DNA of 62,136 bases from a virus (Duplodnaviria > Caudoviricetes). A model generated the notes under the pieces. The model saw only the letters and a program-made list of their open reading frames with translations, made no database searches and was not told the origin of the DNA. The stretch lies in IMG/VR virus record IMGVR_UViG_3300021197_001167, positions 1-62,136 of that record; one strand, given 5' to 3'. Every line of letters begins with the position of its first letter. Position 1 is the first letter of the stretch. A program made the translations under genes and the position numbers. This document shows, in pieces, positions 1-62,136 of the stretch.

Positions 1-341
1 GTGAACGCATTAGTGGAAGTGTAGTCGGAATGTTGCATTTCAAATGCAGTCGCACAGTCTGCCAACATGTGTATGCAGTAGATGCGCACAGATACCTCAT
101 AGAGTTGGGGAATGTCGCTTCTGCAAGCAACGGTTCTTATTCATACCCGAAGAGATACTGTCCTCGATGTGAGGCCAGTGCAAATACAGGCGGATATGAG
201 AGCGAGCGTGAAATGGATGAGCGCATGGCAAAATTAGACAAGGAGATGAAACAATGAGTGAATACTACGCAATAAAAAACGACGCAGAATGGCTATACGC
301 AGACCAACGAGATGAGAATTATTCTCAAATCGTCATCATAC
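1..341 (+). repeat. Terminal direct repeat, copy 1 (circular/terminally redundant overlap)
   Basis: 1-341 aligns ungapped with 61796-62136. Mismatches at 11, 125, 161, 174, 186, 259-265, 267 and 310. Implies a unit length of 61,795 bp. Confidence 0.95.
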
Positions 342-3749: not shown

Positions 3750-4571
3750 ATGCAACCGTTTCGATATTGCGGAGAATGGATTTTTGCACGCCCATGCGAC
3801 ATAGTCGTTGAACGATTTATTGGTTGGCGCAGAGCAGGCCGACGCAGGTTGTTTCAACCTTGCGCAGTTCTACGGGCGGGAATCCACAGCATTATGCTCG
3901 ACGGATTAGACGCAGTATGGGATTTCATTAACGCAGTGCAACCCGACATGCCGAGGGCAGTAGTCAATCAAGGGATGAAGGGCGAGTTCATCGAGGAACA
4001 GCCGTTTGCGCAAGACTTACAGGATTTCATCAATGAATCCGATGCAGATTTTATCTCGGTTCGAGGTCACTACGCACATGTGCGTGAGCCGAACAGCACC
4101 TCGATGTTCTGCGGCCACTACGCAAGTAGAGTAAAAGCGCAGAAAGCCCCAAAATGTATTCTGTCTGCGCCTAAGTCATGGGGCGAATCAGCAGCATTGT
4201 TCCTCCCCATGCGTATGCGTGAGGGTGATGTGCGTTGGTTGCCATCGTTGGTGGTTGGAGATTACCCCCGCTTGGTTATTGCGCAGTCTTTGAGCGAGAG
4301 CAAAGCATTCGATATGGAGTCGGCAGTATTGATTTCAAGCGTTGTCTGCGCCGACGAGCAGGCGCAAGCAGAGATAAGACCCCACCTTTCATTAAAGCGC
4401 ACAGAACCGGCTACAATTATTTCTTCTATCGCAGAGATGCACCACCAGTTATGCGACAGCGACTACGAACCGTTGCCTTGCGACGACGAAACGAGAACAG
4501 GTTTGCGCTTCAAGGAAGCAGAGGATATTGAGCGTTCAAGAGCAGAGCGTTTATTTATTTCATTGAATTGA
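3750..4571 (+). CDS. Hypothetical protein (start uncertain)
   Basis: 273-aa ORF on the coding strand; the true 5' end may be at 3725 via a frameshift or indel (see findings). Confidence 0.65.
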   Translation: MQPFRYCGEWIFARPCDIVVERFIGWRRAGRRRLFQPCAVLRAGIHSIMLDGLDAVWDFINAVQPDMPRAVVNQGMKGEFIEEQPFAQDLQDFINESDADFISVRGHYAHVREPNSTSMFCGHYASRVKAQKAPKCILSAPKSWGESAALFLPMRMREGDVRWLPSLVVGDYPRLVIAQSLSESKAFDMESAVLISSVVCADEQAQAEIRPHLSLKRTEPATIISSIAEMHHQLCDSDYEPLPCDDETRTGLRFKEAEDIERSRAERLFISLN

Positions 4572-11265: not shown

Positions 11266-11526
11266 ATGGGGAAACAAAAGAGCCTATTGCATAAGTCCAG
11301 TAGAGACTATGACTCATCGAATCCGACATACGCCTGTGGCGCACCTGTCGAACATAACCCAAACCTTACTGATGCGCAGGCTATGGCTCTTGATAGATGC
11401 CCGAACTGTTTCCCTAATGGTTTCAAGGTCGGTGCTTCACGCACCTTCGTTGAAGAAAAGCCAACCAAAAAATCGAAGGTTGTCGATGGGTTGCGTGCGA
11501 GAGGCATAGGCGGTGCATGGCTATGA
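11266..11526 (+). CDS. Small Zn-binding protein
   Basis: H...CG...CPNC motif; TTTAAG 30 nt upstream. Confidence 0.65.
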   Translation: MGKQKSLLHKSSRDYDSSNPTYACGAPVEHNPNLTDAQAMALDRCPNCFPNGFKVGASRTFVEEKPTKKSKVVDGLRARGIGGAWL

Positions 11527-17993: not shown

Positions 17994-20190
17994 CGTTTTA
18001 ATTCGATACAGGGATGCAGAGGGAAACAGGCAGACGCAGACTGTTTCTGCGAATCCGTTTTGCTATATCGAGCCTCATAACATAGGCGATTTGAAAACAC
18101 CGTTCACTGTCCTTCCCGATGAAGGCTATGAGGGTCTTTATGGGGAAAAATTGCGTAGAGTTGTGTTCGACAATACCGATGATTTGCGCAGTATCTCAAA
18201 GAAGGTTCGCACATGGGAGGCGAACATTGCGCACCCAAACAAGGTTCTCGTTGAACATAATGTAAATATCCCGATGTATCAACATCGAACATGGTTCTTC
18301 GATATGGAGTGGATGATGGACTCCGGCCAAATAACAATTATCGTCATCGAAGACTCGGAGGATGGGGAGTATGTCTTATTCACGCATCCCGATTACAAGG
18401 CAGGTTTCTATGATTCAATACCTTGCAAAGACCACCCCGAAGGGATGACGGAGTGCGCAAGTGGTGAAAGGCAGTTCAAGTGCTTCAAAGACGAAAAATC
18501 ATTACTACAAGGGTTCACAAAACTTCTGCGCAAAAAAGACCCCGACATACTGACTGGTTGGAATGTAGTCAATGCAGACTGCCAACAATTATTCAAGCGA
18601 TTCAAAGCAAACGGTCTTGACATACGCACACTTTCGCCTATGCGCAAAGTTCGATATGACTTCGGGGAATGGGCGCAGCCAATCGCAGGCTACAACACCA
18701 TAGACTTGATGATTGCGTTTAAGAAGTTGTGGACTTTGAAGAACGGACAATTGCCTTCGATGGGATTAGGTGCAGTATCGACATATTGCTTGAAAGAGAC
18801 TAAGGTTGATTTGAAAGACGGGCATGATACCTATTTTACAGATATTGGCACATACCTCGACTACGCAAGACAAGATGTGCGCCTTTTACCGAGATTGAAT
18901 GACTTGGTCGGCGCATTAGATTACTTCACAGCAGTTCAACACATTGCGCAGTGCGATATACGCACTACTCCGTATGTGACGAAGGTTTTTCCTATCCTCG
19001 CTCTGCGTGACAAAGAGTTCAAAGAACAGATACCGAGCAAACCTCAATTCGAGAAGGTCGATTATGAGGGCGCAGACATTCAAGTGCCGGAGGCCGGTGT
19101 GTATCAAAACATAGGAATAATGGATATTAAGGCCATGTATCACTCAAATATCAAGAAGCATAACATTTGTTGGACTACGCTCGCTGATAAAGGAATTGAT
19201 TGCGGCAATGGAGTTAAGTTTGCGCAAAGAAATGGATTACTCGGCAGGCAGATGGATAAAATGACTGTTCTACGCAACAGATACAAGAAGTTGATGAAGT
19301 CTGCGCAAACAGAAAAAGAGCGCAAAATGTATGACGCATTACAGTATGCTACTAAATCCCTCGTTGCCTCTATGTATGGTGTGGCAGGTGACTCCAAATG
19401 TGGATTCTATCACCCCGATATTGCCTCCGCTATCACATTCACATCGAGAAAGACTTTGTTTGAACTTCGAGATATTGCAAATGAATTAGGTTGCACAGTG
19501 CGCTACGGACACACTGACTCGATTATGTGTGATGTAGAGTCTCCCGAAAAAGGTTTAGAACTTCTGCGCACAGTAAATGAGCGCATGAGTCCTATTGAAA
19601 CAGAGTTCGAGAAGTGGTGCGATACATTCCTTATCATGGCTAAGAACCGTTATGCGGCGAGTGTATCATGGACTGAAGGACAGCATCATGCCTCCGAAAT
19701 CTATGTGAAAGGCATTGAAATGAAACAAGGTCGATTACCTAATGCGCTAAAGTCTGCTCTACAATCAACTATACACGGAATACTAAACGAAAAGAATGAG
19801 GTTGAGATTACTCAAGAGATTGAGGATTTAGTGCGCAGAATAATTTCCGGTGATATTCCGGTGCGTGACCTTTGCATCAAAGCAAAGTTGAACAAGAATC
19901 TAAGCGAATACTCAACTCTCGGTGAAGCGAGAGCCGGTGCGCAGTGGGCGAACACCCATTTAGGCAAAGGTTATCGAAAGGATGATTACTTCTTGACTAC
20001 GCTAAATGAGAAGGGAGAATACATCGCCTTCGATGACCCAAGCGAAGTCGAAGGTATTGCGCAGATAGGCTACAAGCACATAGCCGAGCGATTTGTCTTT
20101 AACAAAGTTGCACCGTATTATGAAGTCATGGAGTGGGATATTGTTTCGCTTGAGAATGCACTTAACGGTTTGAACGGGAATTGGATTTGA
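17965..20190 (+). CDS. polB: Family B DNA polymerase
   Basis: ExoI FDME, ExoII GWNVVNAD, ExoIII YARQD; polymerase motifs DIKAMYHS, KSLVASMYG, YGHTDS, KNRY, VKGIE; GTG start after GGAGG. Confidence 0.95.
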   Translation: MIVERTKKNSVLIRYRDAEGNRQTQTVSANPFCYIEPHNIGDLKTPFTVLPDEGYEGLYGEKLRRVVFDNTDDLRSISKKVRTWEANIAHPNKVLVEHNVNIPMYQHRTWFFDMEWMMDSGQITIIVIEDSEDGEYVLFTHPDYKAGFYDSIPCKDHPEGMTECASGERQFKCFKDEKSLLQGFTKLLRKKDPDILTGWNVVNADCQQLFKRFKANGLDIRTLSPMRKVRYDFGEWAQPIAGYNTIDLMIAFKKLWTLKNGQLPSMGLGAVSTYCLKETKVDLKDGHDTYFTDIGTYLDYARQDVRLLPRLNDLVGALDYFTAVQHIAQCDIRTTPYVTKVFPILALRDKEFKEQIPSKPQFEKVDYEGADIQVPEAGVYQNIGIMDIKAMYHSNIKKHNICWTTLADKGIDCGNGVKFAQRNGLLGRQMDKMTVLRNRYKKLMKSAQTEKERKMYDALQYATKSLVASMYGVAGDSKCGFYHPDIASAITFTSRKTLFELRDIANELGCTVRYGHTDSIMCDVESPEKGLELLRTVNERMSPIETEFEKWCDTFLIMAKNRYAASVSWTEGQHHASEIYVKGIEMKQGRLPNALKSALQSTIHGILNEKNEVEITQEIEDLVRRIISGDIPVRDLCIKAKLNKNLSEYSTLGEARAGAQWANTHLGKGYRKDDYFLTTLNEKGEYIAFDDPSEVEGIAQIGYKHIAERFVFNKVAPYYEVMEWDIVSLENALNGLNGNWI

Positions 20191-20227
20191 CGACGGGTTT
20201 ATATGAGGACTGGTGCGTGGTGATAGT

Positions 20228-20509
20228 ATGGCGAGAGATACAAAAAAGCCCACAGTTAAACAGATGCAAGCACTACTTGCGGAAATGACTACTACACTTG
20301 AGCAACAAAACCAAATGTTGAGAGTTGTATTCGCAGAATGCGACAAGTTGAACATGGTTATGGTTCGGATGCTTGAGGCGCAGGGATTACTTCACAAAGA
20401 AGAATGTCCGGAATGCGGTTTCAAAATCAACACACCTCTTCTTGAGGACATTGCTTTACCCATCAACTGTCCGGCCTGCGAGTATAAATTGCGGGATGAG
20501 GAAGAATGA
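20228..20509 (+). CDS. Coiled-coil plus Zn-ribbon protein
   Basis: CPEC...CPAC; TTTATA 30 nt upstream. Confidence 0.7.
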   Translation: MARDTKKPTVKQMQALLAEMTTTLEQQNQMLRVVFAECDKLNMVMVRMLEAQGLLHKEECPECGFKINTPLLEDIALPINCPACEYKLRDEEE

Positions 20510-21360
20510 AAGAAGCATCGAAAATGTCAATTGAAGAATTGAAAGCCAATTCAAGTTATGACCCCACAGAAGAGGGAAAATTGCTTAAGTTGAGCAAGTC
20601 TTCATTTATGACATACTCAAAATGCCCTCGCCAATTTTGGATGCAGAAGGTTGTCTTGAAGGATATGCGAATGCCTGCTACTCCGCAGATGGAGAGGGGT
20701 TCACGCATACACACTGGACTTGAAACACTCTATGATAATTGGGAGGGTCAAAGCACTCTTGCGCCACTAATCCCTGCCGAAGCACATGAAGAAGGCATTG
20801 ATGAAATGGTGAACCTTGAGCAACAGCGCATTGATTTGTGGGGTATCGACAAGTTCAAGCCGATAGAGTATGAAGAATACCGAGCAGTCTATGACGCAGA
20901 GCGTGATGTAGTGCTTGTCGGATTGATTGACGCAGTATTAGTTCATCCCGACGGAGGACTTTGCATTTATGAATTGAAAACCGGAAACATGAATGACGGT
21001 AAATTGTCACGCACACGCAGAGAGTTGTGCTACTATGCGCACATGTTGCGCTTGATGGGTGAAACCCGACCAATTACGCACTTTGCATACCTTGCGCCCG
21101 ACGCAGACAATGTGGACTTTGTTATGAAAATGGTCGAAGACCCAAAAAGACAAGTCATGCTTGGTGATGAAAAGGGAATCCTAATCGTTGAAAAAGTCAA
21201 TGGGCGCAGTCATAACGCATTCATTAAGGCACTGGATAAAGCAGTAGCCGGACTAAAGGCGCATGAGAATCCTATGAAGTGGTCGGACTACTTTTGCCCT
21301 CAATGGTGCGATTTTGCGCCTGCTTGCGAGAGTGAAATGACGGGTGTTGGAGAATGGTGA
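20506..21360 (+). CDS. Cas4-like PD-(D/E)XK exonuclease
   Basis: CPRQFW, GSRIH, GLID and ELKTG motifs; C-terminal CPQWC...C completes a four-Cys Fe-S set. Confidence 0.85.
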   Translation: MKEASKMSIEELKANSSYDPTEEGKLLKLSKSSFMTYSKCPRQFWMQKVVLKDMRMPATPQMERGSRIHTGLETLYDNWEGQSTLAPLIPAEAHEEGIDEMVNLEQQRIDLWGIDKFKPIEYEEYRAVYDAERDVVLVGLIDAVLVHPDGGLCIYELKTGNMNDGKLSRTRRELCYYAHMLRLMGETRPITHFAYLAPDADNVDFVMKMVEDPKRQVMLGDEKGILIVEKVNGRSHNAFIKALDKAVAGLKAHENPMKWSDYFCPQWCDFAPACESEMTGVGEW

Positions 21361-21744
21361 TACCCCCAAAGCATCTGCGCATAAAGTGCGTAAAACCACT
21401 GGCTCATAATCCACAGTTTGAAGGAAAGGCGCATTGTATGCACTGCGCAAGAGATAACAAGAAAGAGTAAGGTGAAACAGAATGAAACCCGAATGGCAAT
21501 GGCAAATTGAAAAGAAACCAATTGGGAAATCATTTCCTCCCCAAGAAGTATTAAATTATTTGAAAGGTGTCAAGAAATGATTATCTGCGCAGAATGTGAC
21601 GGTGAAATGGTCGTCAGCAACGAGAAGGGAAAACCAATGATGCTCTTAACTGGCGATATTGATACTGGCAATGAGCGAATCGCTGTATGCAAGGTGTGCA
21701 ATCATCGTGTGGTTCTTAAGGACTGATGCTCTCCGTTGGTTTGT

Positions 21745-22734
21745 ATGCTACAATTCCCCCGTCAAGTCGGACTCAAGCGAACCATTTGTCATAACAGACA
21801 AGAGTTCGTTCAGTATATCCGCAGGCTCAACGGAAAAACCTCAATCTACACCTCCCTATACCCCTTCGATGAAGTCGGGGATTATGACTCTGCCATCATG
21901 GATAGAGCATGGTGGGATTTCGATATGAACGACGATTTCACTATGGATGATGTGAAGCATGATGTTGCCGCACTAATTCAGCGTTTAGAGGGCGATGTGA
22001 GGCTCGTTGCGACCGGCAGAGGGTTTCATATCCACCAGTGCTTTAAACGCCCCGTAAGAGGCCGAGAATGGGCTATTCACCTTGACAGGTATGAGCGTAA
22101 AATGGCAGAAGGTTTGAGTAGCCTCGATGGAGTCGGTTATCCGGAAAAATTGACAAGGGTTTCGGGAACATACAATCCGAAGCGCAAGAAGTGGGCAGTG
22201 ACTATCCCTGCGCATGACTTCGCACAAGACCCCTTCAATTACCGGATTCCGGAAAAACCTTTACCGGAATACATCAATATCGACCCCTTTCAAGGCAGTA
22301 TTACGGAAAATGAATGCTTTGATTTGGTAAAATGGGCTTTTGACAACCCAATCCCTGTGCGCAAAAGTGTTTCAGTTGGTGAAGGAATATCGGTCGGCGC
22401 AACAAACGGAGAGTGCGCACTGCCACCTTGTCTTGAGCGTGCTATCGGTGTATCAAACCCACCTCATCATGTTCGGGTCGCATTGGTTCAAGAGATGCGC
22501 AGACAGTTGGCATTCTACGCACCCCCCTCCGCACTATCCAACGAGGAAAACCATGATATAACAAACAAAATATGCCTTTTCATAGAGAGTCTTGGTTGGC
22601 AAGACTACATCGAAGGAATTACTCGAAAATATGTAGCAGGTGCAGTGCGCAAATATGAACATGCACCGAGTCCGAACTGGTATCGAAAACATAATTTATG
22701 CAATGGAGAAGGGTGTTGGTTCTGTGCGCAGTGA
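21745..22734 (+). CDS. Archaeo-eukaryotic primase, catalytic domain fused to a PriL-like C-terminal domain
   Basis: WWDFD and TGRGFHIH catalytic motifs; LPPCL, HHVR and terminal Cys cluster resemble the PriL C-terminal domain. Confidence 0.85.
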   Translation: MLQFPRQVGLKRTICHNRQEFVQYIRRLNGKTSIYTSLYPFDEVGDYDSAIMDRAWWDFDMNDDFTMDDVKHDVAALIQRLEGDVRLVATGRGFHIHQCFKRPVRGREWAIHLDRYERKMAEGLSSLDGVGYPEKLTRVSGTYNPKRKKWAVTIPAHDFAQDPFNYRIPEKPLPEYINIDPFQGSITENECFDLVKWAFDNPIPVRKSVSVGEGISVGATNGECALPPCLERAIGVSNPPHHVRVALVQEMRRQLAFYAPPSALSNEENHDITNKICLFIESLGWQDYIEGITRKYVAGAVRKYEHAPSPNWYRKHNLCNGEGCWFCAQ

Positions 22735-22966
22735 AGAAGAAATGATAACGATGCTTAAAGAAGCCTCAAAGTTGAGGGATAGGTGGCTTCAAGTCTTGAC
22801 TGACAAGACATGGGCTGACGATTCGGAGATGCGCAGAGCGATACGCAATTACAATGCTCTGCGTGGCGTTATCAAGAGTCTGCGTTGGGCTTTACAGCAA
22901 CCATTAGCCGGAAACCCTCTCTATTAAGACACTCGCTTAAATACTCCCTCTGCGCAGTTATACGCA

Positions 22967-23665
22967 ATGATAACCGCAGACGACAGGGAGAATGACAAAT
23001 TACTCCATCGTTTATTCGTTAAAGTCGGGAATCGAAAGACAGACCCGAAAGGGCAATGTATTGTCAAAAGACTCAAGACTGGTGATTACATCATCGGGGA
23101 TTATGGCATCGAGGCAAAAGAGATTAACGACCTTTACCGAAGTATTCTCGGTATTGGGCGCAATGGGCGCACTGTGAAGCATCAGTTGGCAGAACTATGC
23201 GAAGCAGTCGAATACCCAATCCTCGCAGTGTATAATACAACACTCAAGCCATATTTCAAAGGCCGTAAGGCGAAAAGACAAGAAGTAGCAAGAGAGATAC
23301 TGCGCCAACAAAGAATCATCAAATCATTCAAAATGACTCTCTACTCACAGTTCCCCAAAGTGCGCCTAATCGAGTTCAACGACATGGATGACTTCATCGA
23401 ATGGCTCGCCATACTAAACATGAACAGCGCAATGCGCACACGCTTTCAACCTGCCATCAAAGAGATGCCGGATGACCCAAGACTGCGTGCGTTGATTGCG
23501 ATTCAAGGAATTACCGAACCAATCGCAATAGCATTACTTGAAAAATACGGGTCACTCGGAGAATTATTAAAGGCAAAAGTCACGCAAAAGGATTTGATGA
23601 AGGTTAAAGGCGTTGGCAGAACTACTGCAAGACGGATTAAAGACATGCGCAAAGCGTGGGTTTAA
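22967..23665 (+). CDS. ERCC4/XPF-family nuclease with HhH motifs
   Basis: ADDRE, LKTGDY and IEAK..DL motifs; IQGI and VKGVG HhH motifs. Confidence 0.88.
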   Translation: MITADDRENDKLLHRLFVKVGNRKTDPKGQCIVKRLKTGDYIIGDYGIEAKEINDLYRSILGIGRNGRTVKHQLAELCEAVEYPILAVYNTTLKPYFKGRKAKRQEVAREILRQQRIIKSFKMTLYSQFPKVRLIEFNDMDDFIEWLAILNMNSAMRTRFQPAIKEMPDDPRLRALIAIQGITEPIAIALLEKYGSLGELLKAKVTQKDLMKVKGVGRTTARRIKDMRKAWV

Positions 23666-23668
23666 TAA
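23661..23668 (+). promoter_or_regulatory. TATA box for the RNA locus
   Basis: GGG-TTTAATAA, the same class as other viral promoters; +30 falls on the first G of the hairpin at 23691. Confidence 0.65.
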
Positions 23669-23690
23669 AGCATAGGAACAAGGGTTAATT

Positions 23691-23764
23691 GCGGGAGAGC
23701 GACAACATACCTCCGATGGGCTTTCGGTTCTGTGTCTTGTTTTCCTCCTTCGTCGCCTCCCGCA
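23691..23764 (+). ncRNA. Putative small RNA with a terminal stem and anti-SD loops
   Basis: GCGGGAG-A-GCGAC pairs with GTCGC-CTCCCGC (12 bp plus a bulge); inner CCGA/TCGG hairpin; ATACCTCC and TTCCTCCTT lie in unpaired regions. Confidence 0.55.
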
Positions 23765-23776
23765 TCTATTTCCTTT

Positions 23777-23852
23777 GGGGTCGTAGTTTAACCGGAAGAA
23801 CACTTCGTTTGCAACGAAGAGGCTAAGGGTTCAAATCCCTTCGACTCCACCA
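23777..23852 (+). tRNA. tRNA-Ala (UGC)
   Basis: Acceptor stem GGGGTCG/CGACTCC with G3:U70, A73 and encoded CCA; D stem GTTT/GAAC; anticodon stem CTTCG/CGAAG with loop TTTGCAA; T arm AAGGG-TTCAAAT-CCCTT. Confidence 0.95.
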
Positions 23853-23853
23853 A

Positions 23854-26800
23854 TCAATACGGCCTCATACTGTTGCTCTGCGCAACACCGAGATTTGAAT
23901 ACCTTCGCATTTTAACAGACAAAGAGTGGATAGTCACTGATGAAAAACCGGCGTTATCATTGCCCTGCGCAGGGCTACGCTCTATTTTTACACTTAATGT
24001 ATTACCTGCTACTTCTGCGCCATTTAACGCACTGGTTGAAAACAATGTGTGGCTTTGTCGAGTTAATGAACCAATTACAATAACTGTTTGTGCTGCGGTG
24101 GCTGCCGTTTCTGCGCAAGTCACTGTTGTTGTTAATTCCCCGTTTAGCGATGTATCGCCTTCAAAGGATAACTGCGCAATAACTTCTACAAACCCACCCT
24201 CCGATACATCATTTGGCACACGCACATTGATGCTGTGGCTGTGTGTTTCGCCCTGTGCGCCTGTTTCGGGATTGATGACTCCACCCAAAACGAATCCATC
24301 GGATGCAGGGATGCTTACGCCTTCGCTACTCATCATTGTTGATTCGATGCCGTCTATATCTCGGTTTGATGATAAGGCCGTAGAGGGTCTGTTTTGCCCT
24401 ATTACACTGAAAGAACCATCGGATAGCCCGACATCTGTTGCGAAGGATGCTTTGCCCTTTAACCCTCTAAATATTGATGTTCCTAAGAGGTTTGCAGACA
24501 TACCCGCAAACTTGCTTGATGGGTCGCCACCTTCGCCACCCATCGAGTTGAATGCTTGCGCCGGAATCAAGCCTCCCCCGCCCATAGGTGGCAGAGGTAA
24601 AACCGGAGGTATGGTTGGAGGGGGTATTTCGGGTCTTGGTGGTCTATTTGGTAAGCCCCCGCCATCTTCTGCAAGTTGTTTAAAGACACCCGCAAGAGTG
24701 TATTTGAAATGTTTTTCAGTGCGCTGTAAATCTAAAGCAACCTTATCGACTTGTTTATCCTTTTTGTTCCATGTAATACCTGCAATGTTAAGTGTTTCAT
24801 TGGTTAAATCCATGTGCGTATCAGTCAAAGACACCGTAGAAGCCGGAACATAATTTATGTCATCTACAATAGCAAGACGAGGCGCATAGTATGCTGTGCG
24901 CAGTTCTGCTTGTTTCCCCATACCTGCGTCAATTTTGTGTCCGAGAGGGAATGCGTTTGAAGTAGTAAAACCATGCGAGTTATAGGTTGTTAATCCTGTA
25001 ATGTCGTGCGCATTGTAAATATTTCCTGTATGTTCAAATCTGCGTGCAATGCTTTGTAAATAGTCATAATTAACAGAAAAAATAACTTTTTTTGCTGTGC
25101 TTGAGTATGAAGAAGGCAGTTGAACTTCAAACATACCGTTCCCTGTAATTTCAACAGACGCAGAACCGGCCAGTGTATTTACACTATACTCCGGTGGTAT
25201 TTCCGAACCGGCAGAACCGCTTGTTGTTTCGTTAAATGTGTAATCTAAAAGCCATAACTTGTATGTGTTTGCATCACTTACTGGATTTGTTGAACGACCA
25301 TTGCCCGAAGCACCATGAAGGCTAATTGCAAGCCTTAGTTCGTTGTTTGTTGTTTCGCTAAACTTTGGTGTATTTTTATCAACATTCACTACTTTAAGAC
25401 AAGGTGTTAAACTGTTTGTTCCGTAGTGGGGTATGCCATTGCTTTTTGAATTGCCAAATTGATAATGAACAGGATGAATCCCCGAATGAGGCGTAAATCC
25501 GCTATCGCAATATATCGAAAGTCTTTGCGAAGCATTCCCAACAATTGTATTCCACCCATTCTGCAAAATAACAGAAGAACCATAACCTGCACCGGAAGCA
25601 TCCCATTGCGCAGTGCCACTCGGCCCACTTATTGTAAAAATCAATGACCCCACTTGAGTATTGCTGCCAGTAGCACTATGAACATGTATTCCTTTTGTTT
25701 CTAAAACACTTTGATTTTCAACAATTGCTTGAACAACAGTAATGCTATCATTTCTTGTTTCGCTATCTGTAAGAGAAACAGAGCCTAATTGATGCGAAAA
25801 TAAAGTTTGAGATGAGTGCGCAAAGTCTTGAACTCCGTTAAATGGCATACCGCCCCATAGATTAGTCCAAGAAGCATTTGCTTTTTTATTATAGAGAAAT
25901 CCTCTGCGCATAACATCTTGCACATATCCATATCGACCGCCGGATAGCATTTTGCTTTTTTCTCCGGCTTGAAGTAATACTTCTGCGTTAATTTGCACTT
26001 GCGCATTAGATTCACGCAAAAACTCTTGTTTTGCAAGAGCCATTGCTTCTGCTTCACTGAAAACCTTTGGTTGTTGTAGCACACGCCATCGAGTAGTAGC
26101 ACCTTCGACGGGAGTTGGGTATTCTGCGTAGTTGCTGTTTCCGTTAAAATACACACGCACATTTGTAATCTGCGCACCCATTCTTGTTTGCATTGAGGAT
26201 TGCTTTAGATTTGCTCTTGTAAAGGCAATGTTGGAGGGTATTTGCTGCCGAATAGTAAGGATATTATCTCTATCCATTAACCAGTTAAATGTCGTTTGCT
26301 TTCCAACCACACCGTTTCCGTCTTTATCAACAATGTTTGTAGCGATGTTCATAATAGTCATACCTTTACCGTCAAACATTGACCCGAATGAATCTTTTTG
26401 CGCAGAACCAACAGCATCCGGCATGTATCTTGTCTTTGGCATTTCATAAATGCAAGGAAGTGTTGTGTTTCTTGCCCATGTATCTGCTGTTGTAATTGAA
26501 TACATACTGCGCAATTTATCATCTGCGTAATATGTTCCTCTGTTTTGGCTTTTTACTACGCCTTCAATGTTCACAGAAAGTCGCAACGGGAATAACGCAG
26601 AAGGTGTGTTAAAGACAAGAACTTTTTCAAAAATACCCGCACTATTTGCTGTTGTTTTTAATGTAATAGTTGCTCTTGATGCAGGGCTTGAGTAATTTGC
26701 ACGCTCACTTGCAACAAGTGTTTTAACTGTATTTGGGTCTTCTGCGTTTGGCAGACTTGTTATAAATACACCTGTTAATTTATCTCCAAGTGTTGCGTCA

Positions 26801-29800
26801 GTTCCCTTTCCAGTCCATGAGTAATAATAAATTAAATCCTCTTGTCCTCTGTTGCTTCCTTTTTGACAAATAATCGCACCTGTTCCCGCAGTCGGGAATT
26901 GTGTATTATCATCTACATAAAGAACAGTGTCTCCAAGCGCAATGTCTTGTGTCATAATTGTGTTGTCATTAAGCATAAACAAAGAGTTCGGGTGATGATG
27001 AATTGTAGTTCCGGCAGTTGTCTTGTAAGAGGATATTGCCGATTTGTAATATGCGTCTGTTAAGAACGGGAATCCCTTTGTAGCAAGCACATAGTCTCCG
27101 AAATCAACAAGCCCACCGCTTGCATATCCAGTTCTGCCACCTGTTGCGGCAGTGTTGAGATTGTAAAATCGAGATGCGTCGATAACAAGGAATGAACCAC
27201 CTTTATTTTCCCAATTATGGTATCTATCGTCAAGAGATTCATAATTGCTACCGCCGTGTAAAGAAGACCATGAAGTGCCATAGTAAGGTTCTGTTGTTGC
27301 ATCGAACTGCCAAATATCAACATCTTCACCAATTTTTAATTCTGTGAATACATCGGGGAATCCGGATTCATCGAATTGGTCTGCAAGAGCGACATTTACT
27401 TTGTAATTTTTAGTAGTTGGTAAAATTATCCCAAAGTCTTTAGTGCGCAATCCGCCATCTGCATTTGCTGTTCCGTCGTTGCGCATATCAGCCCAAAGAA
27501 CATACAAGTGTTTGTAGCCATTGCTTTCATCGACTTTGCGCAGACTAATAATTGTTTTTGTAATGTCAAATTGTTTTTTAATTCCCTTTACTCCGGTTAT
27601 TTCAATGTTTCCTTTGCGCAAAGTTCCTGTTTGAGTTGCCGGTGCAACTTGAACTGTTGGAGAACCAACAAATGCTATTCTATCTCTTTTGGCTTTGATT
27701 GCATCGGGGTCATTAAAATGATGTGCTGCACCAAGCGACCATTGAGAACCGCCTTGAGCAACAGACTTAGCATAAGAAAACTCGTTAATCATTGGTTCAA
27801 ACTCGATTCTTTCTGCGTAGTATTCTGTGCTACTTGCAAGTTGCGACGATACTTGAAAAACACCGTTTAAATCGTAGTGGTCGAAACCTTCATGGATAAC
27901 AATATCGCCCCTTGAAACTGATGCGCTTGCGCTTGTAAATCGACCAGTTCCGCTATCCCAAGTAAGATTATTTGAAATAGAAGGCGTGACGACTCCGTTT
28001 GCTATGCAGTATTGAGAGTCTCCTGTATCTGTGTCAAGAAGTTCAAGAATAAATCCTTCATCTTCCATGTTGTAATGTTTAATGAACCACCAAAGACCGG
28101 CTTCATCAAAATGAATTGAAGTAGTGTCTTTATCAAGGAATCCCGAAGTATGTTGTGTTGCTCGAATACCATTCCAAGTAAGCGGAGTTCCGTTGCTGTT
28201 ATAACCAGTTGAACCATTTGCGGCAATATAATTTGGCGAAAGAATTGAATGAGTGGCAGAGCCTATTCCTGTTCTCCAATAAGGAACGGGGTCAATAATC
28301 CCAAACTGCGCTTTGAAGAAAGGGGATAGTGGCAAGTCACGCATCCAACGAGCGTGAACACGACTATGCTTAACAGTGTTAAACTTCAAAAAGTCGCCTG
28401 TTGAACCGTATGAGCCATAATCAAATAAACCCGTTCCGTTTGATTGCCTTTTAGCAAGAAGCGGTAAATCTTTAGGAACTCTATGCGCAATAGGAGATGC
28501 GTGCGCACTAAGTTTGCGCAAATCTACTGCTTGCCCTCTTTCATTAAAGTTTGAAGCAAGAAGACTTGCTGAACCTTGCTCTATTCGAGGAATAATACAA
28601 CGAACTTTAGTTGCAGTTATTGATGCTAAAACCTTAAACTGTGTTTGCGTGTAATAATTCCCTGCATCAGTGTTTGAAATCATTCCATCTTGAAGAACAA
28701 ATACATCTCCAAAGGATAAGTTATGATTAGTAGCAGTAGTCACATCAACCAAATGCTCTTGGGGAATAGAAGTATCAATGGCAGGGCTTGTATAACCTTG
28801 TGTTGTTTGTTGAGTAGCATAATTTGAACCACCAGTAGCAGAATAATTAAGCACATCTATTCTTGTTGTCTCGAAAAGAATATCACTTGTTCCTGTTGGC
28901 ATATCTGTTGTCGTGACAATTTTTACCCACATGTCACCTGCGCCAGTTGAAGTAGTGCTTGTTAATGCACCGTTTATACGGTTGCGTATGACTTCCATGC
29001 TTGTGATTGTATAACCGCCCGAAAGATTGTCATACCCATTAGTGCCTTTTACATGAATAGTTCCACCATTGGTTAAACCTTTATAGGAGGTAATTGTTTT
29101 TCTTGTAAAATTAGCACTCCCAAAGGTTATTGTTGGGCTTGCGTCATACTTGACATAAAATGCTAATTTATCATTTCCTTGATTGCTTGAATAACCCACT
29201 ATTTCACACAAAGACCATGTATTATCTGCGCCTCCGGCATTTGTGTCACCCACACCCCCGCCTTCCCATTGATTTTCTAAATTATTCGGGCCTGCTTCGT
29301 CTTCGTTAATATACATTTGAATCGTTTGACTCGAATACAAATGAGTTCTTGGGTTATCATGTTTTTGAAATGTCAAACCGGATTGCGAAGTATCATACTT
29401 GTTAAAACCTAATGTATTTTCTCCTATTGTAAGCGCAGAAGAACCAAACATCATAGAATCTGCTAAGGTTTGTGTGTCATAGGCTCTTTTTGTATTTACA
29501 GCATCCATTGAAATATGTTCATTCAATGAAAAGAAAGCATTAGTTCCTGTTTCCCAAATAGGCAAAACACGGTCAAGCACACTTGCAGAATCTCTTGCAG
29601 TAAGAGTTGTTTCAAGTGTTTGTTGTTGGCTGTTTTGCATGTGCGCAATTTCTTCAAGATAACCCGACCAAATAGGGCGTGACTCATCATCTCTAAAAGA
29701 AAGTAGTCGCCATTCTGTTGCAGAAGAACCAGTAGTAAGTGCCGATAAAGAATAATCATTTAAGTCGTCAAGCAATGTAATAGACATACTCGATACATTG

Positions 29801-31155
29801 TCTGCACCGCTTGTATAATCCATTGCTGAAATAAGCGGAGGATATTCTGCTGTGCCTGCACGCCAGTTAAGAGGCAAGCATAATGCTGCCCTATCAATTA
29901 GTGTGTCAAGAACTACTCCTTGAGAACCTGCACCCGACCATTTAGCATCAAGCGACCATCCCTTAGCAGTAAGCATTGTCACATTTGTATCAATAGAACC
30001 TGTTGCAAATGCGCTTGTATTATCGTTTGAATATGCTTGCCATGTATTGTTTGTAAAATTAAAGAAAACATACACATCAGCCCAAATTGAATCGGGATTG
30101 TATGCAGTAGCATTAGCCTGTCCTTCTTGCCATTGATTTAACGCCCCTGTGATGCCTAAATTGGCAAGAGATATGTCAATAGTAGCCAACGATGCAGTGT
30201 CGCTAAAATCGTCGCTTGTAGTGGTGTAAGAAGCAGTATTTTTGTAGCCGACTTTTAGAATGTAATTGTCAAAAGTCCAATCACCTATTTTGTGTGCTGC
30301 AATGCGCAAATGAAACATTTCACCAATTCCACGCATACGCAGTGCGCCATCATAGGTTATGATTCTCGATGTTTTACTTGTATTTACATCGTTGTAAATG
30401 CTATTGACAAGAAATTGTTGTTGCGCAGGGGATTTGACATTGAATAAGTATTTTGAGGGTCTTGTTTCACCAAAGGAAAGAGATGACTGCGGGGCTTCTC
30501 CGGTATAAACGCTGGTAAAAAATGTATGTTTTATTTCTTGGCCTAATTCCCCACGCAGTAATCGAGCAAATCCGCCTGTGTGAATCCCTTCTGTCAAGTA
30601 TGAGCCTGCATAATTAAGAGAGCGTGAACCTCCGAGGGTGGGGTCGATAGTTCCTGTTGGCATGTAGTAATCGCCATCGGTGTCATGCCCGTTAAAAAAG
30701 CGCAAATAACCTTCATTGCCTGCGCCATTCCATTTTTGTCTATTTGACGCAAGAGAAGTCGGAACAAGAAGTCTTGGTTGGTTTTCGGGATAACTGCCGT
30801 CGGTATTTGCTGTATCAACGGTAATCCATTCATGCAAACCTCGATTCATTTTTAATTTTGTATTTGCCGTCTGCGCATAATCCCATGAGTCATTTGAACC
30901 CGAACCTCCGTGTTGCGCAGGGTCAAGTTCGGCATACTCACCGCTTCCTAAACGCTCTACATAGGGATGAGCAAAACGAGGACTTAGGATATTTTCTCCG
31001 CCGTAAAGACTGCCATGATGCGATAATGTGTGTGAAAGCGTGCGAGAACTTGCAGTGTTTTTATCATCTGCAACGGCTCTTGCACTATGAAAGTCGTCGT
31101 AATAACCTGCAAGCCAATAAGACTGTTCAAAAGAAACTGTTTTCATATCATACAC
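23854..31155 (-). CDS. Giant tail tip/baseplate-receptor-binding protein (2433 aa)
   Basis: Directly follows the tape measure gene; beta-rich, S/T/G/N-rich; ITNVRVY segment reminiscent of tail hub proteins; Pro-rich linker near the C-terminus. Confidence 0.75.
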   Translation of the reverse strand: MYDMKTVSFEQSYWLAGYYDDFHSARAVADDKNTASSRTLSHTLSHHGSLYGGENILSPRFAHPYVERLGSGEYAELDPAQHGGSGSNDSWDYAQTANTKLKMNRGLHEWITVDTANTDGSYPENQPRLLVPTSLASNRQKWNGAGNEGYLRFFNGHDTDGDYYMPTGTIDPTLGGSRSLNYAGSYLTEGIHTGGFARLLRGELGQEIKHTFFTSVYTGEAPQSSLSFGETRPSKYLFNVKSPAQQQFLVNSIYNDVNTSKTSRIITYDGALRMRGIGEMFHLRIAAHKIGDWTFDNYILKVGYKNTASYTTTSDDFSDTASLATIDISLANLGITGALNQWQEGQANATAYNPDSIWADVYVFFNFTNNTWQAYSNDNTSAFATGSIDTNVTMLTAKGWSLDAKWSGAGSQGVVLDTLIDRAALCLPLNWRAGTAEYPPLISAMDYTSGADNVSSMSITLLDDLNDYSLSALTTGSSATEWRLLSFRDDESRPIWSGYLEEIAHMQNSQQQTLETTLTARDSASVLDRVLPIWETGTNAFFSLNEHISMDAVNTKRAYDTQTLADSMMFGSSALTIGENTLGFNKYDTSQSGLTFQKHDNPRTHLYSSQTIQMYINEDEAGPNNLENQWEGGGVGDTNAGGADNTWSLCEIVGYSSNQGNDKLAFYVKYDASPTITFGSANFTRKTITSYKGLTNGGTIHVKGTNGYDNLSGGYTITSMEVIRNRINGALTSTTSTGAGDMWVKIVTTTDMPTGTSDILFETTRIDVLNYSATGGSNYATQQTTQGYTSPAIDTSIPQEHLVDVTTATNHNLSFGDVFVLQDGMISNTDAGNYYTQTQFKVLASITATKVRCIIPRIEQGSASLLASNFNERGQAVDLRKLSAHASPIAHRVPKDLPLLAKRQSNGTGLFDYGSYGSTGDFLKFNTVKHSRVHARWMRDLPLSPFFKAQFGIIDPVPYWRTGIGSATHSILSPNYIAANGSTGYNSNGTPLTWNGIRATQHTSGFLDKDTTSIHFDEAGLWWFIKHYNMEDEGFILELLDTDTGDSQYCIANGVVTPSISNNLTWDSGTGRFTSASASVSRGDIVIHEGFDHYDLNGVFQVSSQLASSTEYYAERIEFEPMINEFSYAKSVAQGGSQWSLGAAHHFNDPDAIKAKRDRIAFVGSPTVQVAPATQTGTLRKGNIEITGVKGIKKQFDITKTIISLRKVDESNGYKHLYVLWADMRNDGTANADGGLRTKDFGIILPTTKNYKVNVALADQFDESGFPDVFTELKIGEDVDIWQFDATTEPYYGTSWSSLHGGSNYESLDDRYHNWENKGGSFLVIDASRFYNLNTAATGGRTGYASGGLVDFGDYVLATKGFPFLTDAYYKSAISSYKTTAGTTIHHHPNSLFMLNDNTIMTQDIALGDTVLYVDDNTQFPTAGTGAIICQKGSNRGQEDLIYYYSWTGKGTDATLGDKLTGVFITSLPNAEDPNTVKTLVASERANYSSPASRATITLKTTANSAGIFEKVLVFNTPSALFPLRLSVNIEGVVKSQNRGTYYADDKLRSMYSITTADTWARNTTLPCIYEMPKTRYMPDAVGSAQKDSFGSMFDGKGMTIMNIATNIVDKDGNGVVGKQTTFNWLMDRDNILTIRQQIPSNIAFTRANLKQSSMQTRMGAQITNVRVYFNGNSNYAEYPTPVEGATTRWRVLQQPKVFSEAEAMALAKQEFLRESNAQVQINAEVLLQAGEKSKMLSGGRYGYVQDVMRRGFLYNKKANASWTNLWGGMPFNGVQDFAHSSQTLFSHQLGSVSLTDSETRNDSITVVQAIVENQSVLETKGIHVHSATGSNTQVGSLIFTISGPSGTAQWDASGAGYGSSVILQNGWNTIVGNASQRLSIYCDSGFTPHSGIHPVHYQFGNSKSNGIPHYGTNSLTPCLKVVNVDKNTPKFSETTNNELRLAISLHGASGNGRSTNPVSDANTYKLWLLDYTFNETTSGSAGSEIPPEYSVNTLAGSASVEITGNGMFEVQLPSSYSSTAKKVIFSVNYDYLQSIARRFEHTGNIYNAHDITGLTTYNSHGFTTSNAFPLGHKIDAGMGKQAELRTAYYAPRLAIVDDINYVPASTVSLTDTHMDLTNETLNIAGITWNKKDKQVDKVALDLQRTEKHFKYTLAGVFKQLAEDGGGLPNRPPRPEIPPPTIPPVLPLPPMGGGGLIPAQAFNSMGGEGGDPSSKFAGMSANLLGTSIFRGLKGKASFATDVGLSDGSFSVIGQNRPSTALSSNRDIDGIESTMMSSEGVSIPASDGFVLGGVINPETGAQGETHSHSINVRVPNDVSEGGFVEVIAQLSFEGDTSLNGELTTTVTCAETAATAAQTVIVIGSLTRQSHTLFSTSALNGAEVAGNTLSVKIERSPAQGNDNAGFSSVTIHSLSVKMRRYSNLGVAQSNSMRPY

Positions 31156-61538: not shown

Positions 61539-61807
61539 ACATTGAAAGGATAGGAGAGGCAAAACACGCAATCGCAAATTACATTTCGCAGATAGATGCC
61601 ATGCGCAGAGCGCACACGGAGATTGAGGTTGCAATATCGCACTTCAACGCAGTTCATGCGCCGATGCCTGCCGATGCAGATGTTGCCGCTTTCAACAATC
61701 GCCACGCTTTGCGTGCTATGACCGACGGGTTGGAGATGCAAATAAGGGTTGCCAAATTGCGCATAACCAATTTGCAAAGGGTCATCGACGAAGAGGTGAA
61801 CGCATGA
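61535..61807 (+). CDS. Hypothetical helical protein
   Basis: GGAGG RBS; ATGA coupling. Confidence 0.65.
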   Translation: MNIERIGEAKHAIANYISQIDAMRRAHTEIEVAISHFNAVHAPMPADADVAAFNNRHALRAMTDGLEMQIRVAKLRITNLQRVIDEEVNA

Positions 61808-62136
61808 GTGGAAGTGTAGTCGGAATGTTGCATTTCAAATGCAGTCGCACAGTCTGCCAACATGTGTATGCAGTAGATGCGCACAGATACCTCATAGAGT
61901 TGGGGAATGTCGCTTCTGCGAGCAACGGTTCTTATTCATACCCGAAGAGATACTGCCCTCGATGTGAGACCAGTGCAAATGCAGGCGGATATGAGAGCGA
62001 GCGTGAAATGGATGAGCGCATGGCAAAATTAGACAAGGAGATGAAACAATGAGCAGCGCATCCGCAATAAAAAACGACGCAGAATGGCTATACGCAGACC
62101 AACGGGATGAGAATTATTCTCAAATCGTCATCATAC
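61796..62136 (+). repeat. Terminal direct repeat, copy 2
   Basis: 327 of 341 positions identical to 1-341. Confidence 0.95.
61804..62052 (+). CDS. Small Zn-ribbon protein (also present in the repeat copy at 9-257)
   Basis: CSRTVC...CPRC; ATG is intact in this copy but reads ATT in the 5' copy. Confidence 0.65.
   Translation: MSGSVVGMLHFKCSRTVCQHVYAVDAHRYLIELGNVASASNGSYSYPKRYCPRCETSANAGGYESEREMDERMAKLDKEMKQ

What the first reader, a model, noticed from the sequence alone, without database searches (positions are those of the whole stretch)
23661..23852. Putative viral anti-Shine-Dalgarno small RNA upstream of tRNA-Ala
Seen: a 74-nt element whose ends pair (GCGGGAG-A-GCGAC / GTCGC-CTCCCGC). 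It begins exactly 30 nt after a GGG-TTTAATAA box, the same spacing found for ATGs at many promoters in this genome. Its unpaired interior carries two anti-SD tracts, ATACCTCC and TGTTTTCCTCCTT, resembling the archaeal 16S 3' end (ACCUCC). The second tract is partly complementary to the early-gene leaders CAGGAGACTGAAAACATG (about 61060), CAGGAGAGAAACACATG (about 1475) and AAGGAGAGACAAAAAATG (about 59474). Inference: a trans-acting sRNA that masks SD-led host or early viral mRNAs while leaderless viral mRNAs escape, acting as a translational switch. I know of no such system described in these viruses.
Basis: partly seen in the sequence, partly recalled or inferred. Interest (0 to 1): 0.85.

Follow-up and report, generated by a model that had tools for sequence, protein, structure and literature searches.

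The report
Virus small RNA with anti-Shine-Dalgarno loops
A group of uncultured, probably archaeal, tailed viruses keeps a gene for a 75-base folded RNA whose open loop copies the ribosome's mRNA-docking sequence, so it may steer which messages get translated during infection, though nothing has been tested.

Summary
Window 23691-23764 (+) is a real, single-copy small RNA gene. It has its own archaeal-type promoter (TATA box 23661-23668, over the ERCC4 nuclease stop codon). It sits at the same spot in 31 of 80 related virus loci. Across 24 distinct versions the 12-16 bp end-to-end stem keeps pairing while its sequence changes: 98.7% of cells paired against 64.7% in shuffles, with 12 G-U and 0 A-C cells, so the + strand is read. 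The 30-56 nt loop is 70-88% pyrimidine. CCUCC-type tracts are enriched beyond composition and predicted unpaired. No Rfam family matches. The tRNA is incidental, present in 6 of 32.

Function is inferred. No RNA run was listed, and no extended target exists in the virus. One new lead: late structural genes use GGUGA-type ribosome sites, while early genes use GGAGG-type sites, which the loops complement.

This scan noted the same architecture before on other DNA (Asgard, Methanothrix, other marine archaeal viruses). Sequence look-ups found no shared sequence.

The parts
22967..23665 (+). ERCC4/XPF-type nuclease gene with a C-terminal helix-hairpin-helix domain. It is the last gene of the + strand replication block. 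Its stop codon (23663-23665) lies inside the RNA's TATA box.
   Evidence: Pfam ERCC4 8.4e-11 and HHH_5 9.6e-10. Used as the anchor to fetch 80 related loci.
23658..23668 (+). Promoter box GGG-TTTAATAA (TATA-like box at 23661-23668).
   Evidence: The first T is 30 nt before G 23691. A TATA-like hexamer starts at -29 to -31 in 23 of 24 distinct homologues, and at -34 in L005. It belongs to the GGGTTTAWNW class: 11 copies against 1.5 expected.
23681..23690 (+). A/T-rich stretch ending in T(-1), just before G(+1). Inferred initially melted region and initiator.
   Evidence: T-G at the start in all 24 distinct homologues (alignment A7). The sequences upstream are listed. The role is inferred from the general archaeal promoter layout.
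23691..23764 (+). The small RNA, from inferred start G 23691 to the conserved A after the stem.
   Evidence: Covariance model R3 scores it 82.8 bits, E 4e-15, as the only copy in the window. Fold.
23691..23703 (+). 5' arm of the closing stem (GCGGGAG, bulged A 23698, GCGAC).
23707..23714 (+). Anti-SD-like tract 1 (AUACCUCC).
   Evidence: CCUC in the 5' half of the loop occurs in 16 of 24 homologues, with mean unpaired probability 0.72.
23725..23729 (+). Central YGGYU motif (CGGUU), predicted to pair weakly with part of tract 1.
   Evidence: YGGYT occurs 31 times in 24 loops against 4.9 expected (0 of 2000 shuffles). The GG is mostly paired, with unpaired probability 0.21.
23738..23750 (+). Anti-SD-like tract 2 (UGUUUUCCUCCUU), the more accessible tract.
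   Evidence: CCUC in the 3' half of the loop occurs in 18 of 24 homologues, with mean unpaired probability 0.88.
23752..23763 (+). 3' arm of the closing stem (GUCGC CUCCCGC), followed by the conserved unpaired A 23764.
   Evidence: A follows the stem in 21 of 24 homologues.
23777..23852 (+). tRNA-Ala(UGC) with encoded CCA. It starts 13 nt after the RNA with no room for its own TATA box, so it is probably co-transcribed. It is variable cargo, not part of the RNA family.
   Evidence: ARAGORN and Rfam 70.5 bits. A tRNA is present in 6 of 32 homologous loci: Ala in 3, Pro in 3.
23854..31155 (-). Converging 2433-aa ORF, the last gene of the late tail module. Its stop codon abuts the RNA or tRNA.
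   Evidence: ORF list. No Pfam hit. Its neighbours are a tape-measure-like protein and a tail tube protein.

Best explanation
Shown. Window 23691-23764 (+) is an independent gene for a non-coding RNA of about 74 nt, kept by one clade of uncultured tailed viruses with archaeal-type gene signals. It is read from a TATA box that overlaps the stop codon of the ERCC4 nuclease gene. The first and last 12-16 bases form a G+C-rich clamp. That clamp holds open a 30-56 nt pyrimidine-rich loop.

Inferred mechanism. The loop displays one or two UCCUCC/CACCUC tracts, the same letters as the mRNA-docking tail of 16S rRNA. These tracts pair in trans with GGAGG-type Shine-Dalgarno sequences and compete with the ribosome, lowering translation of such messages. 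In these viruses GGAGG-type sites dominate the early and part of the replication genes. The late structural genes use GGUGA-type sites, which most loops do not complement. The RNA's promoter belongs to the class used in the replication block. The RNA could therefore shift translation from early (and perhaps host) messages to late ones. The closing stem would protect both ends from exonucleases. In genomes with a tRNA just downstream, the tRNA rides on the same transcript.
For: The gene is real and is RNA.
- R3 finds it at the same place in the window and in 31 of 80 loci at E <= 0.0036. The next hits have E 3 and 6.3.
- There is one strong copy in each of 5 whole relatives.
- In 24 distinct sequences, 98.7% of 302 cells pair, against a shuffle mean of 64.7 (0 of 500 reach it) and 38-56% in slid controls.
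- 102 cells are changed on both sides, against 29 in shuffles.
- RNAalifold gives the same 12 pairs, 10 with compensation.
- All 24 single-sequence folds show the stem. Fifteen representatives have z -2.7 to -5.5.

Strand. There are 12 G-U cells and 0 A-C cells.

Promoter. The TATA box lies at -29 to -31 in 23 of 24 homologues, the same geometry as before leaderless ATGs.

Not coding. 8 of 9 close pairs differ by lengths that are not multiples of 3.

Motif.
- CCTCC occurs in 12 of 16 clade representatives against 2.9 expected (0 of 2000 shuffles).
- CCTC occurs 42 times against 14.3. TCCTC occurs 26 times against 6.1, and CACCTC 6 times against 0.39.
- CCUC has unpaired probability 0.81.
- The motif is not explained by pairing to the RNA's own 5' arm or by a triplex.

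SD flavour.
- Viral SDs are GGAGG/GAGGUGA/GGUGAU.
- Late-strand genes: 51 GGTG-type against 12 GGAG-type. RNA-strand genes: 47 against 87. The direction is the same in 6 of 6 genomes.
- Coding background is equal, with ratios 0.78 and 0.82.
- In the window the GGAG-only share falls from 10 of 15 (early) to 5 of 12 (replication) to 1 of 12 (late).
- 22 of 24 loops complement GGAGG-type 5-mers; 8 of 24 complement GGUGA-type.
- A genome's own loop binds RNA-strand SD regions better than late ones: -12.55 against -10.14 kcal/mol. The summed gap is -14.40 against -8.67 +/- 2.16 for shuffled loops, and 0 of 60 shuffles reach it.
Against: - No expression data: no RNA run was listed. The 5' and 3' ends are inferred.
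- No extended target site in the virus.
- A crude duplex screen shows start regions no better than internal windows: -17.79 against -17.78 kcal/mol.
- About 60% of the early-versus-late binding gap is plain composition. Per genome the excess is weak: 5, 15, 14, 6, 1 and 22 of 60 shuffles reach it.
- The SD-flavour split is significant in only 4 of 6 genomes taken singly (p = 0.036, 0.006, 0.21, 0.0008, 0.033, 0.17). Orthologues across genomes are not independent.
- Loops of L006, L013/L014, L018/L019 and L030 carry UCACC, which would also mask GGUGA-type late sites.
- One covariation measure is not exceptional: pairs with a change on both sides number 10 against 8.2, and 42 of 500 shuffles reach it.
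- Alignment A7 was fitted to the model.
- Five of 24 elements hold runs of T5 or longer inside the loop, which might stop an archaeal polymerase early.
- The host and its SD usage are unknown.
Confidence: 0.45

Rival explanations
1. Protein decoy or sponge. The open C/U-rich loop, with its CCUCC tracts and repeated YGGYU motif, is a binding platform for a host or viral RNA-binding protein. Candidates are a factor that normally holds the 16S rRNA 3' tail, a KH-domain protein or an Sm-like protein. The RNA would titrate or recruit it.
For: - Two short motifs are enriched beyond composition, and one of them (YGGYU, 31 against 4.9) has no obvious role in SD pairing.
- No specific RNA target was found.
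- Some tracts extend along the 16S-tail sequence: ATCACCTC in L030 and CACCTCCT in L020.
- That archaeal Sm-like proteins bind small RNAs is cited in the reference list of PMC5867862. KH-type binders of the 16S tail are recalled only.
Against: No candidate partner was identified. The Pfam scans of 20 window proteins showed no RNA-binding domain, and most small ORFs were not scanned. The commonest tract, UCCUCC (20 of 29 CCTC are preceded by T), departs from the 16S tail, which has A there.
Confidence: 0.2
2. Transcript-end element. The hairpin marks where the replication operon and the converging late tail operon end. It would act as a terminator, an insulator and a 3'-end stabiliser, and as the leader of the tRNA where one is present. 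It would have no trans-acting role.
For: It always lies exactly between the two converging blocks, within 2-12 nt of the tail gene's stop codon where no tRNA is present. The loops hold U tracts: T4 or longer in 14 of 24. The minus strand can also form the stem.
Against: - 0 of 24 have a T5 or longer tract in the 20 nt after the stem.
- A terminator does not explain a TATA box at a fixed -30 with T-G at the start in 23 of 24.
- It does not explain the strand-specific G-U pattern, 12 against 0.
- It does not explain the conserved accessible CCUCC tracts.
- More distant relatives have the same converging layout without the element.
Confidence: 0.1
3. Cis-antisense timer. The RNA gene overlaps the read-through tail of the late operon's transcript. 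The function lies in the perfect duplex between the two RNAs, by transcriptional interference or double-strand RNA cleavage, and not in the loop tracts.
For: The position next to the late operon's end is conserved. No T tract on the minus strand separates the tail gene's stop from the element.
Against: Pure antisense action needs neither a covarying stem nor conserved loop motifs. Insertion of a tRNA or of about 100 nt of other sequence between the RNA and the tail gene is tolerated.
Confidence: 0.07
4. tRNA-like minihelix. The 12 bp closing stem plus an unpaired A mimics the acceptor and T arm stack of a tRNA. The RNA would then be processed, CCA-tailed or recognised by tRNA enzymes or tRNA-targeting defences.
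For: An A follows the stem in 21 of 24 homologues, is followed by CC in 14 of 24 and by CCA in 6 of 24. The window's stem is 7 bp, a bulge, then 5 bp. tRNA genes have been inserted next to it twice. An earlier scan note (e1-5652765) described a similar idea for another virus RNA.
Against: ARAGORN and the Rfam tRNA model do not see it. No T-loop or D-arm is present. Stem length varies from 12 to 16 bp. The window's own copy has no CC after the A. The significance of the CC was not tested against local composition.
Confidence: 0.05
5. Small hydrophobic peptide gene. The U/C-rich sequence would encode a Phe/Leu/Ser/Pro-rich peptide, starting at the NTG that spans -2 to +1.
For: A 45-codon TTG ORF runs 23689-23826. 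At least one frame is free of stops on the + strand in 24 of 24 elements, which is expected from the low A content.
Against: 8 of 9 close pairs differ by frameshifting lengths. The ORF runs into the tRNA. Compensatory stem changes are not expected of coding sequence.
Confidence: 0.02

Closest known systems
Methanosarcina mazei intergenic sRNAs sRNA41, sRNA154 and sRNA162
   Same: These are archaeal, separately transcribed small RNAs. Their stable structure displays loops with anti-ribosome-binding-site sequence that mask RBSs and repress translation. For sRNA41 the targets lie within polycistronic mRNAs (passages of the review PMC5867862; the primary papers were not read).
   Different: They are cellular, condition-regulated, and have defined metabolic targets. 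The RNA here is virus-encoded and has no detectable sequence relation to any Rfam family. It shows only the generic SD core with no extended target. It is built as one long end-to-end clamp around a single large loop. Its function is untested.
Closing-stem, CU-loop small RNAs noted earlier in this scan (Thorarchaeota, Hermodarchaeia, Methanothrix, other marine archaeal viruses: e1-5560401, e1-5447935, e1-2640597, e1-5652750, e1-5652765)
   Same: The architecture as described in those notes is the same: own promoter, G+C-rich end-to-end stem, open pyrimidine-rich loop with CCUCC.
   Different: These are unpublished AI notes on other genomes. Look-ups by sequence with three versions of this element found no look-alike. 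Common descent is therefore not shown. I could not read their sequences.
Bacterial C-rich-loop sRNAs that mask Shine-Dalgarno sites (RsaE/RoxS type; Cuckoo/CcsR RNAs)
   Same: Unpaired C-rich motifs pair with G-rich ribosome-binding sites of many mRNAs. This is recalled knowledge; the names also appear in earlier scan notes.
   Different: They are bacterial, have several small hairpin loops instead of one clamp, and are cellular. No Rfam match was found here.
Haloferax volcanii Val-tRNA-derived fragment
   Same: An archaeal small RNA that inhibits translation globally at the small ribosomal subunit (abstract of PMC11009984 as shown in the listing).
   Different: By that abstract it binds the 30S subunit itself. 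The RNA here would bind the mRNA side by imitating the rRNA tail, and it is a primary transcript, not a tRNA fragment.

Membership tests
Archaeal anti-RBS intergenic sRNAs (sRNA41/sRNA154 type) | Separately transcribed intergenic small RNA | tested here: inconclusive
   The promoter geometry is met: TATA box at -29 to -31 in 23 of 24, with T-G at the start. No transcript data: no RNA run was listed.
Archaeal anti-RBS intergenic sRNAs (sRNA41/sRNA154 type) | Unpaired loop carrying sequence complementary to ribosome-binding sites | tested here: met
   CCTCC occurs in 15 of 24 loops against 4.0 expected (0 of 2000 shuffles). CCUC has unpaired probability 0.81. The viral SD consensus is GGAGG/GAGGUGA.
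Archaeal anti-RBS intergenic sRNAs (sRNA41/sRNA154 type) | Sequence or structure homology to the Methanosarcina RNAs | tested here: inconclusive
   No Rfam family matches the element in the window (E up to 10) or, at the gathering threshold, in the 20 relatives' loci searched. I do not know which of these sRNAs Rfam holds, and I held no sequence of them.
Archaeal anti-RBS intergenic sRNAs (sRNA41/sRNA154 type) | Shown repression of translation of defined targets | not testable with these tools
   Needs experiments.
tRNA / tRNA-like RNA | Cloverleaf recognised by tRNA detectors | tested here: not met
   ARAGORN and Rfam RF00005 hit only 23777-23852, not the element.
tRNA / tRNA-like RNA | Acceptor-like stem followed by discriminator and CCA | tested here: inconclusive
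   An A follows the stem in 21 of 24, CC follows in 14 of 24, and CCA in 6 of 24. The window's own copy has none.
tRNA 5' leader | Always precedes a tRNA gene | tested here: not met
   A tRNA lies downstream in 6 of 32 homologous loci.
Archaeal intrinsic terminator | Oligo-U tract at the transcript end | tested here: not met
   0 of 24 have T5 or longer in the 20 nt after the stem. 5 of 24 have T5 or longer inside the loop.
C/D box sRNA | C box RUGAUGA and D box CUGA | tested here: not met
   0 of 24 have either box. The box motifs are recalled.
Protein-coding small ORF | Reading frame kept among close relatives | tested here: not met
   8 of 9 close pairs differ by net lengths that are not multiples of 3.

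The most novel reading that the evidence does not exclude
The virus times its own gene expression, and perhaps shuts off its host, at the level of ribosome docking. Early genes carry GGAGG-type docking sites. Late structural genes carry GGUGA-type sites, which use a different part of the 16S rRNA tail. A virus-made copy of the CCUCC part of that tail, produced together with the replication genes, soaks up GGAGG-type sites so that ribosomes move to late messages. Late-operon read-through across the RNA gene could then neutralise it. This would be a viral 'anti-SD mimic' switch of a kind not described for any virus, as far as my searches show.
Probability: 0.2. Interest if true: 0.85.

Novelty: new variant of a known kind. 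Interest (0 to 1): 0.66.

Why it matters
Very few regulatory RNAs of archaeal viruses are known, and none that I found acts on ribosome docking (searches, listings only). This RNA family is well defined and can go straight to experiment. It has 24 distinct versions, a clear promoter, a covarying clamp and conserved accessible tracts.

Together with the module-specific Shine-Dalgarno flavours seen in six genomes, it gives a concrete hypothesis. An archaeal virus might re-order translation during infection without encoding any translation factor. The hypothesis can be checked with GGAGG-led, GGUGA-led and leaderless reporters.

It also adds a viral case to a recurring archaeal design: a closing stem around an open CCUCC loop. 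This scan keeps meeting that design, and only the Methanosarcina sRNAs have tied it to a function.

Tried and rejected
- **Rfam.** Nothing but the tRNA.
- **Expression.** The look-up of sequencing runs with kind rna on 19000-28999 listed no RNA holder.
- **MAFFT alignments A1 and A2.** They put the 3' arms out of register. I replaced them with three rounds of covariance models.
- **Triplex.** A Hoogsteen-parallel match of the loop to the purine 5' arm scored 101 against 95.6, and 86 of 1000 shuffles reach it. Rejected.
- **Alternative pairing of the loop with the 5' arm.** 100 against 107.7, and 978 of 1000 shuffles reach it. Rejected.
- **Extended targets in the window.** None for either tract.
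- **RNAduplex of the whole loop against start regions.** No better than internal windows.
- **Stop-free frames as a coding test.** Uninformative, because the element is A-poor.
- **Host.** The host is not determined. 'Archaeal' rests on promoter and leaderless signals, the XPF-type nuclease, and a PolB nearest (22%) to haloarchaeal tailed viruses.
- **Promoter pattern.** GGTTTAWAWR was too strict and missed the RNA's own box. It was replaced.
- **Literature.** The first search was badly posed and gave nothing useful. PMC11706807 has no ERCC4, non-coding or small-RNA passage in its main text. PMC5434244 has no ERCC4, XPF, TATA, promoter or MoxR passage. Supplements were closed and may list such genes.
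- **Terminal repeat check.** A prefix=suffix test and the repeat finder failed. A local alignment then showed the overlap.
Full report
**What is there.** The window is a complete 62-kb record of a tailed virus. It encodes portal, large terminase, tail tube and tape-measure-like proteins, a family B polymerase, an RFC-like ATPase, a PD-(D/E)XK nuclease and an ERCC4/XPF-HhH nuclease. Genes run on the + strand up to 23665 and on the - strand from 49128 down to 23854. The finding therefore sits where the replication block and the late tail block converge.

- TTTAATAA at 23661-23668, over the ERCC4 stop codon.
- G 23691, 30 nt after the first T of that box.
- A 5' arm GCGGGAG-A-GCGAC and a 3' arm GTCGC-CTCCCGC, around a 48-nt interior.
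- tRNA-Ala(UGC) at 23777-23852.

The + strand folds to -29.6 kcal/mol (z -4.29, 0 of 200 shuffles). The - strand folds less well.

**Relatives.** The ERCC4 protein found 196 relatives in viral contigs, of which 80 loci were kept. Every locus with ERCC4 identity of 58.8% or more that reaches far enough carries an equivalent element 22-25 nt after the stop codon. Loci at 52.5% identity or less do not.

MAFFT could not keep the arms in register. I therefore built covariance models in three rounds. Results with the last model, R3:
- It finds the window and 31 of 80 loci at E <= 0.0036, all at that place on the + strand.
- L003 is cut off inside the element.
- The next hits have E 3 and 6.3.
- Five complete genomes of more distant relatives have none at E < 0.9.
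- Five whole genomes of carriers have one strong copy each.

**It is an RNA structure read from the + strand.** On 24 distinct sequences:
- 98.7% of 302 cells pair. The shuffle mean is 64.7%, and 0 of 500 shuffles reach the observed value.
- With the partner slid by 1-3 columns, only 38-56% pair.
- 102 cells carry changes on both sides, against 29 in shuffles.
- The count of pairs with any such change is not exceptional (10 against 8.2; 42 of 500 shuffles reach it).

That alignment was fitted to the model. Three checks support the same stem:
- RNAalifold run on that same alignment (A7) predicts the same 12 pairs and no inner helix.
- All 24 single-sequence folds show the stem.
- Fifteen representatives have z -2.7 to -5.5.

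Close pairs show fresh compensation, for example L018 against L019. The stem cells hold 12 G-U and 0 A-C, so selection acts on the + strand transcript.

It is not coding. 8 of 9 close pairs differ by lengths that are not multiples of three.

**It has its own promoter.** A TATA-like hexamer starts at -29 to -31 from the G in 23 of 24 distinct homologues. The 24 nt between box and start differ freely, and T-G at the start is invariant. The ERCC4 C-terminal residues differ between clades, so the box is not kept by the protein.

In the window the same hexamer peaks at -31/-30 before candidate ATGs (8 of 221). GGGTTTAWNW occurs 11 times against 1.5 expected, mostly in the replication block. Thirty-three nt after its first G stands an ATG in 4 cases, and the RNA's G in this one.

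The tRNA starts 7-13 nt after the RNA, which leaves no room for a box of its own. It is present in only 6 of 32 loci, as Ala or Pro. It is cargo added to this transcription unit, not the reason for it.

**The loop.**
- Loops are 30-56 nt long and 70-88% pyrimidine.
- Against shuffles of each loop, CCTCC occurs in 15 of 24 loops (4.0 expected) and in 12 of 16 clade representatives (2.9 expected).
- CCTC occurs 42 times against 14.3, and YGGYT 31 times against 4.9. All of these loop counts give 0 of 2000 shuffles.
- TCCTC, CCTCCT and CACCTC are also enriched.
- The CCUC tracts are predicted open (0.81 overall; 0.88 for the 3' tract). The central GG is mostly paired.
- Neither a triplex nor alternative pairing with the 5' arm explains the tracts.

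**What it might do.** The virus's own genes show the docking rule. 39 of 81 predicted genes have a match of 5 nt or more to AGGAGGTGATC at -17 to -4, against 7.3 for controls. These genes lie in all modules. Only 7 have a TATA box 30 nt before the ATG.

No site in the genome matches either tract beyond the SD core. A crude duplex screen does not favour start regions.

A different pattern emerged. In the window the share of GGAG-only sites falls from 10 of 15 in the early block, to 5 of 12 in the replication block, to 1 of 12 in the late block. There 11 of 12 are (A)GGTGA(T).

In the window plus five whole relatives:
- Late-strand genes have 51 GGTG-type against 12 GGAG-type sites.
- RNA-strand genes have 47 against 87.
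- The direction is the same in 6 of 6 genomes. Four of the six are significant alone, and orthologues are not independent.
- Coding background does not differ, with ratios 0.78 and 0.82.

22 of 24 loops complement GGAGG-type 5-mers, and 8 of 24 complement GGUGA-type. Each genome's own loop binds RNA-strand SD regions better than late ones: -12.55 against -10.14 kcal/mol. About 60% of that gap is composition, but the summed gap exceeds all 60 shuffles.

This fits an RNA that masks GGAGG-type sites and spares late genes. The UCACC-bearing loops of four clades speak against a simple rule.

**Rivals.** I considered a protein decoy, a transcript-end element, a cis-antisense timer, a tRNA-like minihelix and a peptide gene. 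They are weighed in their own sections. The terminator and peptide readings fail direct tests.

**Comparison.** The nearest published systems are the Methanosarcina mazei sRNAs that mask ribosome-binding sites (passages of PMC5867862). This RNA works like them on paper, but membership is not shown.

Earlier notes of this scan describe the same design in Asgard archaea, Methanothrix and other marine archaeal viruses. Sequence look-ups found nothing shared.

My literature searches listed no archaeal virus RNA of this kind (listings and abstracts only). Supplements were closed.

**Verdict.** The gene and its features are real (about 0.9). The SD-masking mechanism is the best reading, at about 0.45. 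It is a new, virus-borne variant of a known kind of regulator.

Noticed in passing
window, all genes; also whole relatives G006-G010 (L084-L102): Shine-Dalgarno flavour differs by module. Late structural genes use (A)GGUGA(U). Early genes use GGAGG/AGGAG. Replication genes are mixed. Pooled over six genomes: 51 GGTG-type against 12 GGAG-type on the late strand, and 47 against 87 on the other strand. Coding background ratios are equal.
   Followed up: partly
window 8644, 8682, 11233, 13457, 15969, 17920, 20195, 23658, 57190 (+); 28432, 43000 (-): The promoter-like box GGGTTTAWNW occurs 11 times against 1.5 expected. An ATG stands exactly 33 nt after its first G at 11266, 16002, 20228 and 57223, which points to leaderless operon starts.
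   Followed up: partly
window 1-300 and about 61796-62136: The first 300 nt recur near the end of the record with about 10 small differences and one 3-nt indel. The ends overlap imperfectly, as in a circularly permuted or terminally redundant genome assembled from a mixed population.
   Followed up: partly
window 23777-23852; L009-L011 about 3809-3883: The tRNA cargo at this site differs between clades: Ala(UGC) with encoded CCA and a G3-U70 pair in the window, L001 and L002, and Pro(UGG) in L009-L011. It is always 7-13 nt after the small RNA.
   Followed up: partly
L022 about 1598-1700; L027 about 3806-3920: These two relatives carry about 100 nt of extra sequence, with small hairpins, between the small RNA and the tail gene's stop codon. 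The content is unknown.
   Followed up: no
L001 3724-3796: A 99%-related virus has a T7 run inside the loop and has lost one C from each CCUCC tract by single-base deletions. The tracts are therefore not immutable.
   Followed up: no
L083 (genome contigs): The only ERCC4 relative in 185,579 species genomes lies on a 61-kb contig binned with an Opitutales (bacterial) MAG. This is most likely a mis-binned virus contig.
   Followed up: no
window 23854-31155 (-): A 2433-aa ORF with no Pfam match ends the tail module. Its C-terminal end (reverse complement of TCAATAxGG) is conserved across relatives.
   Followed up: no
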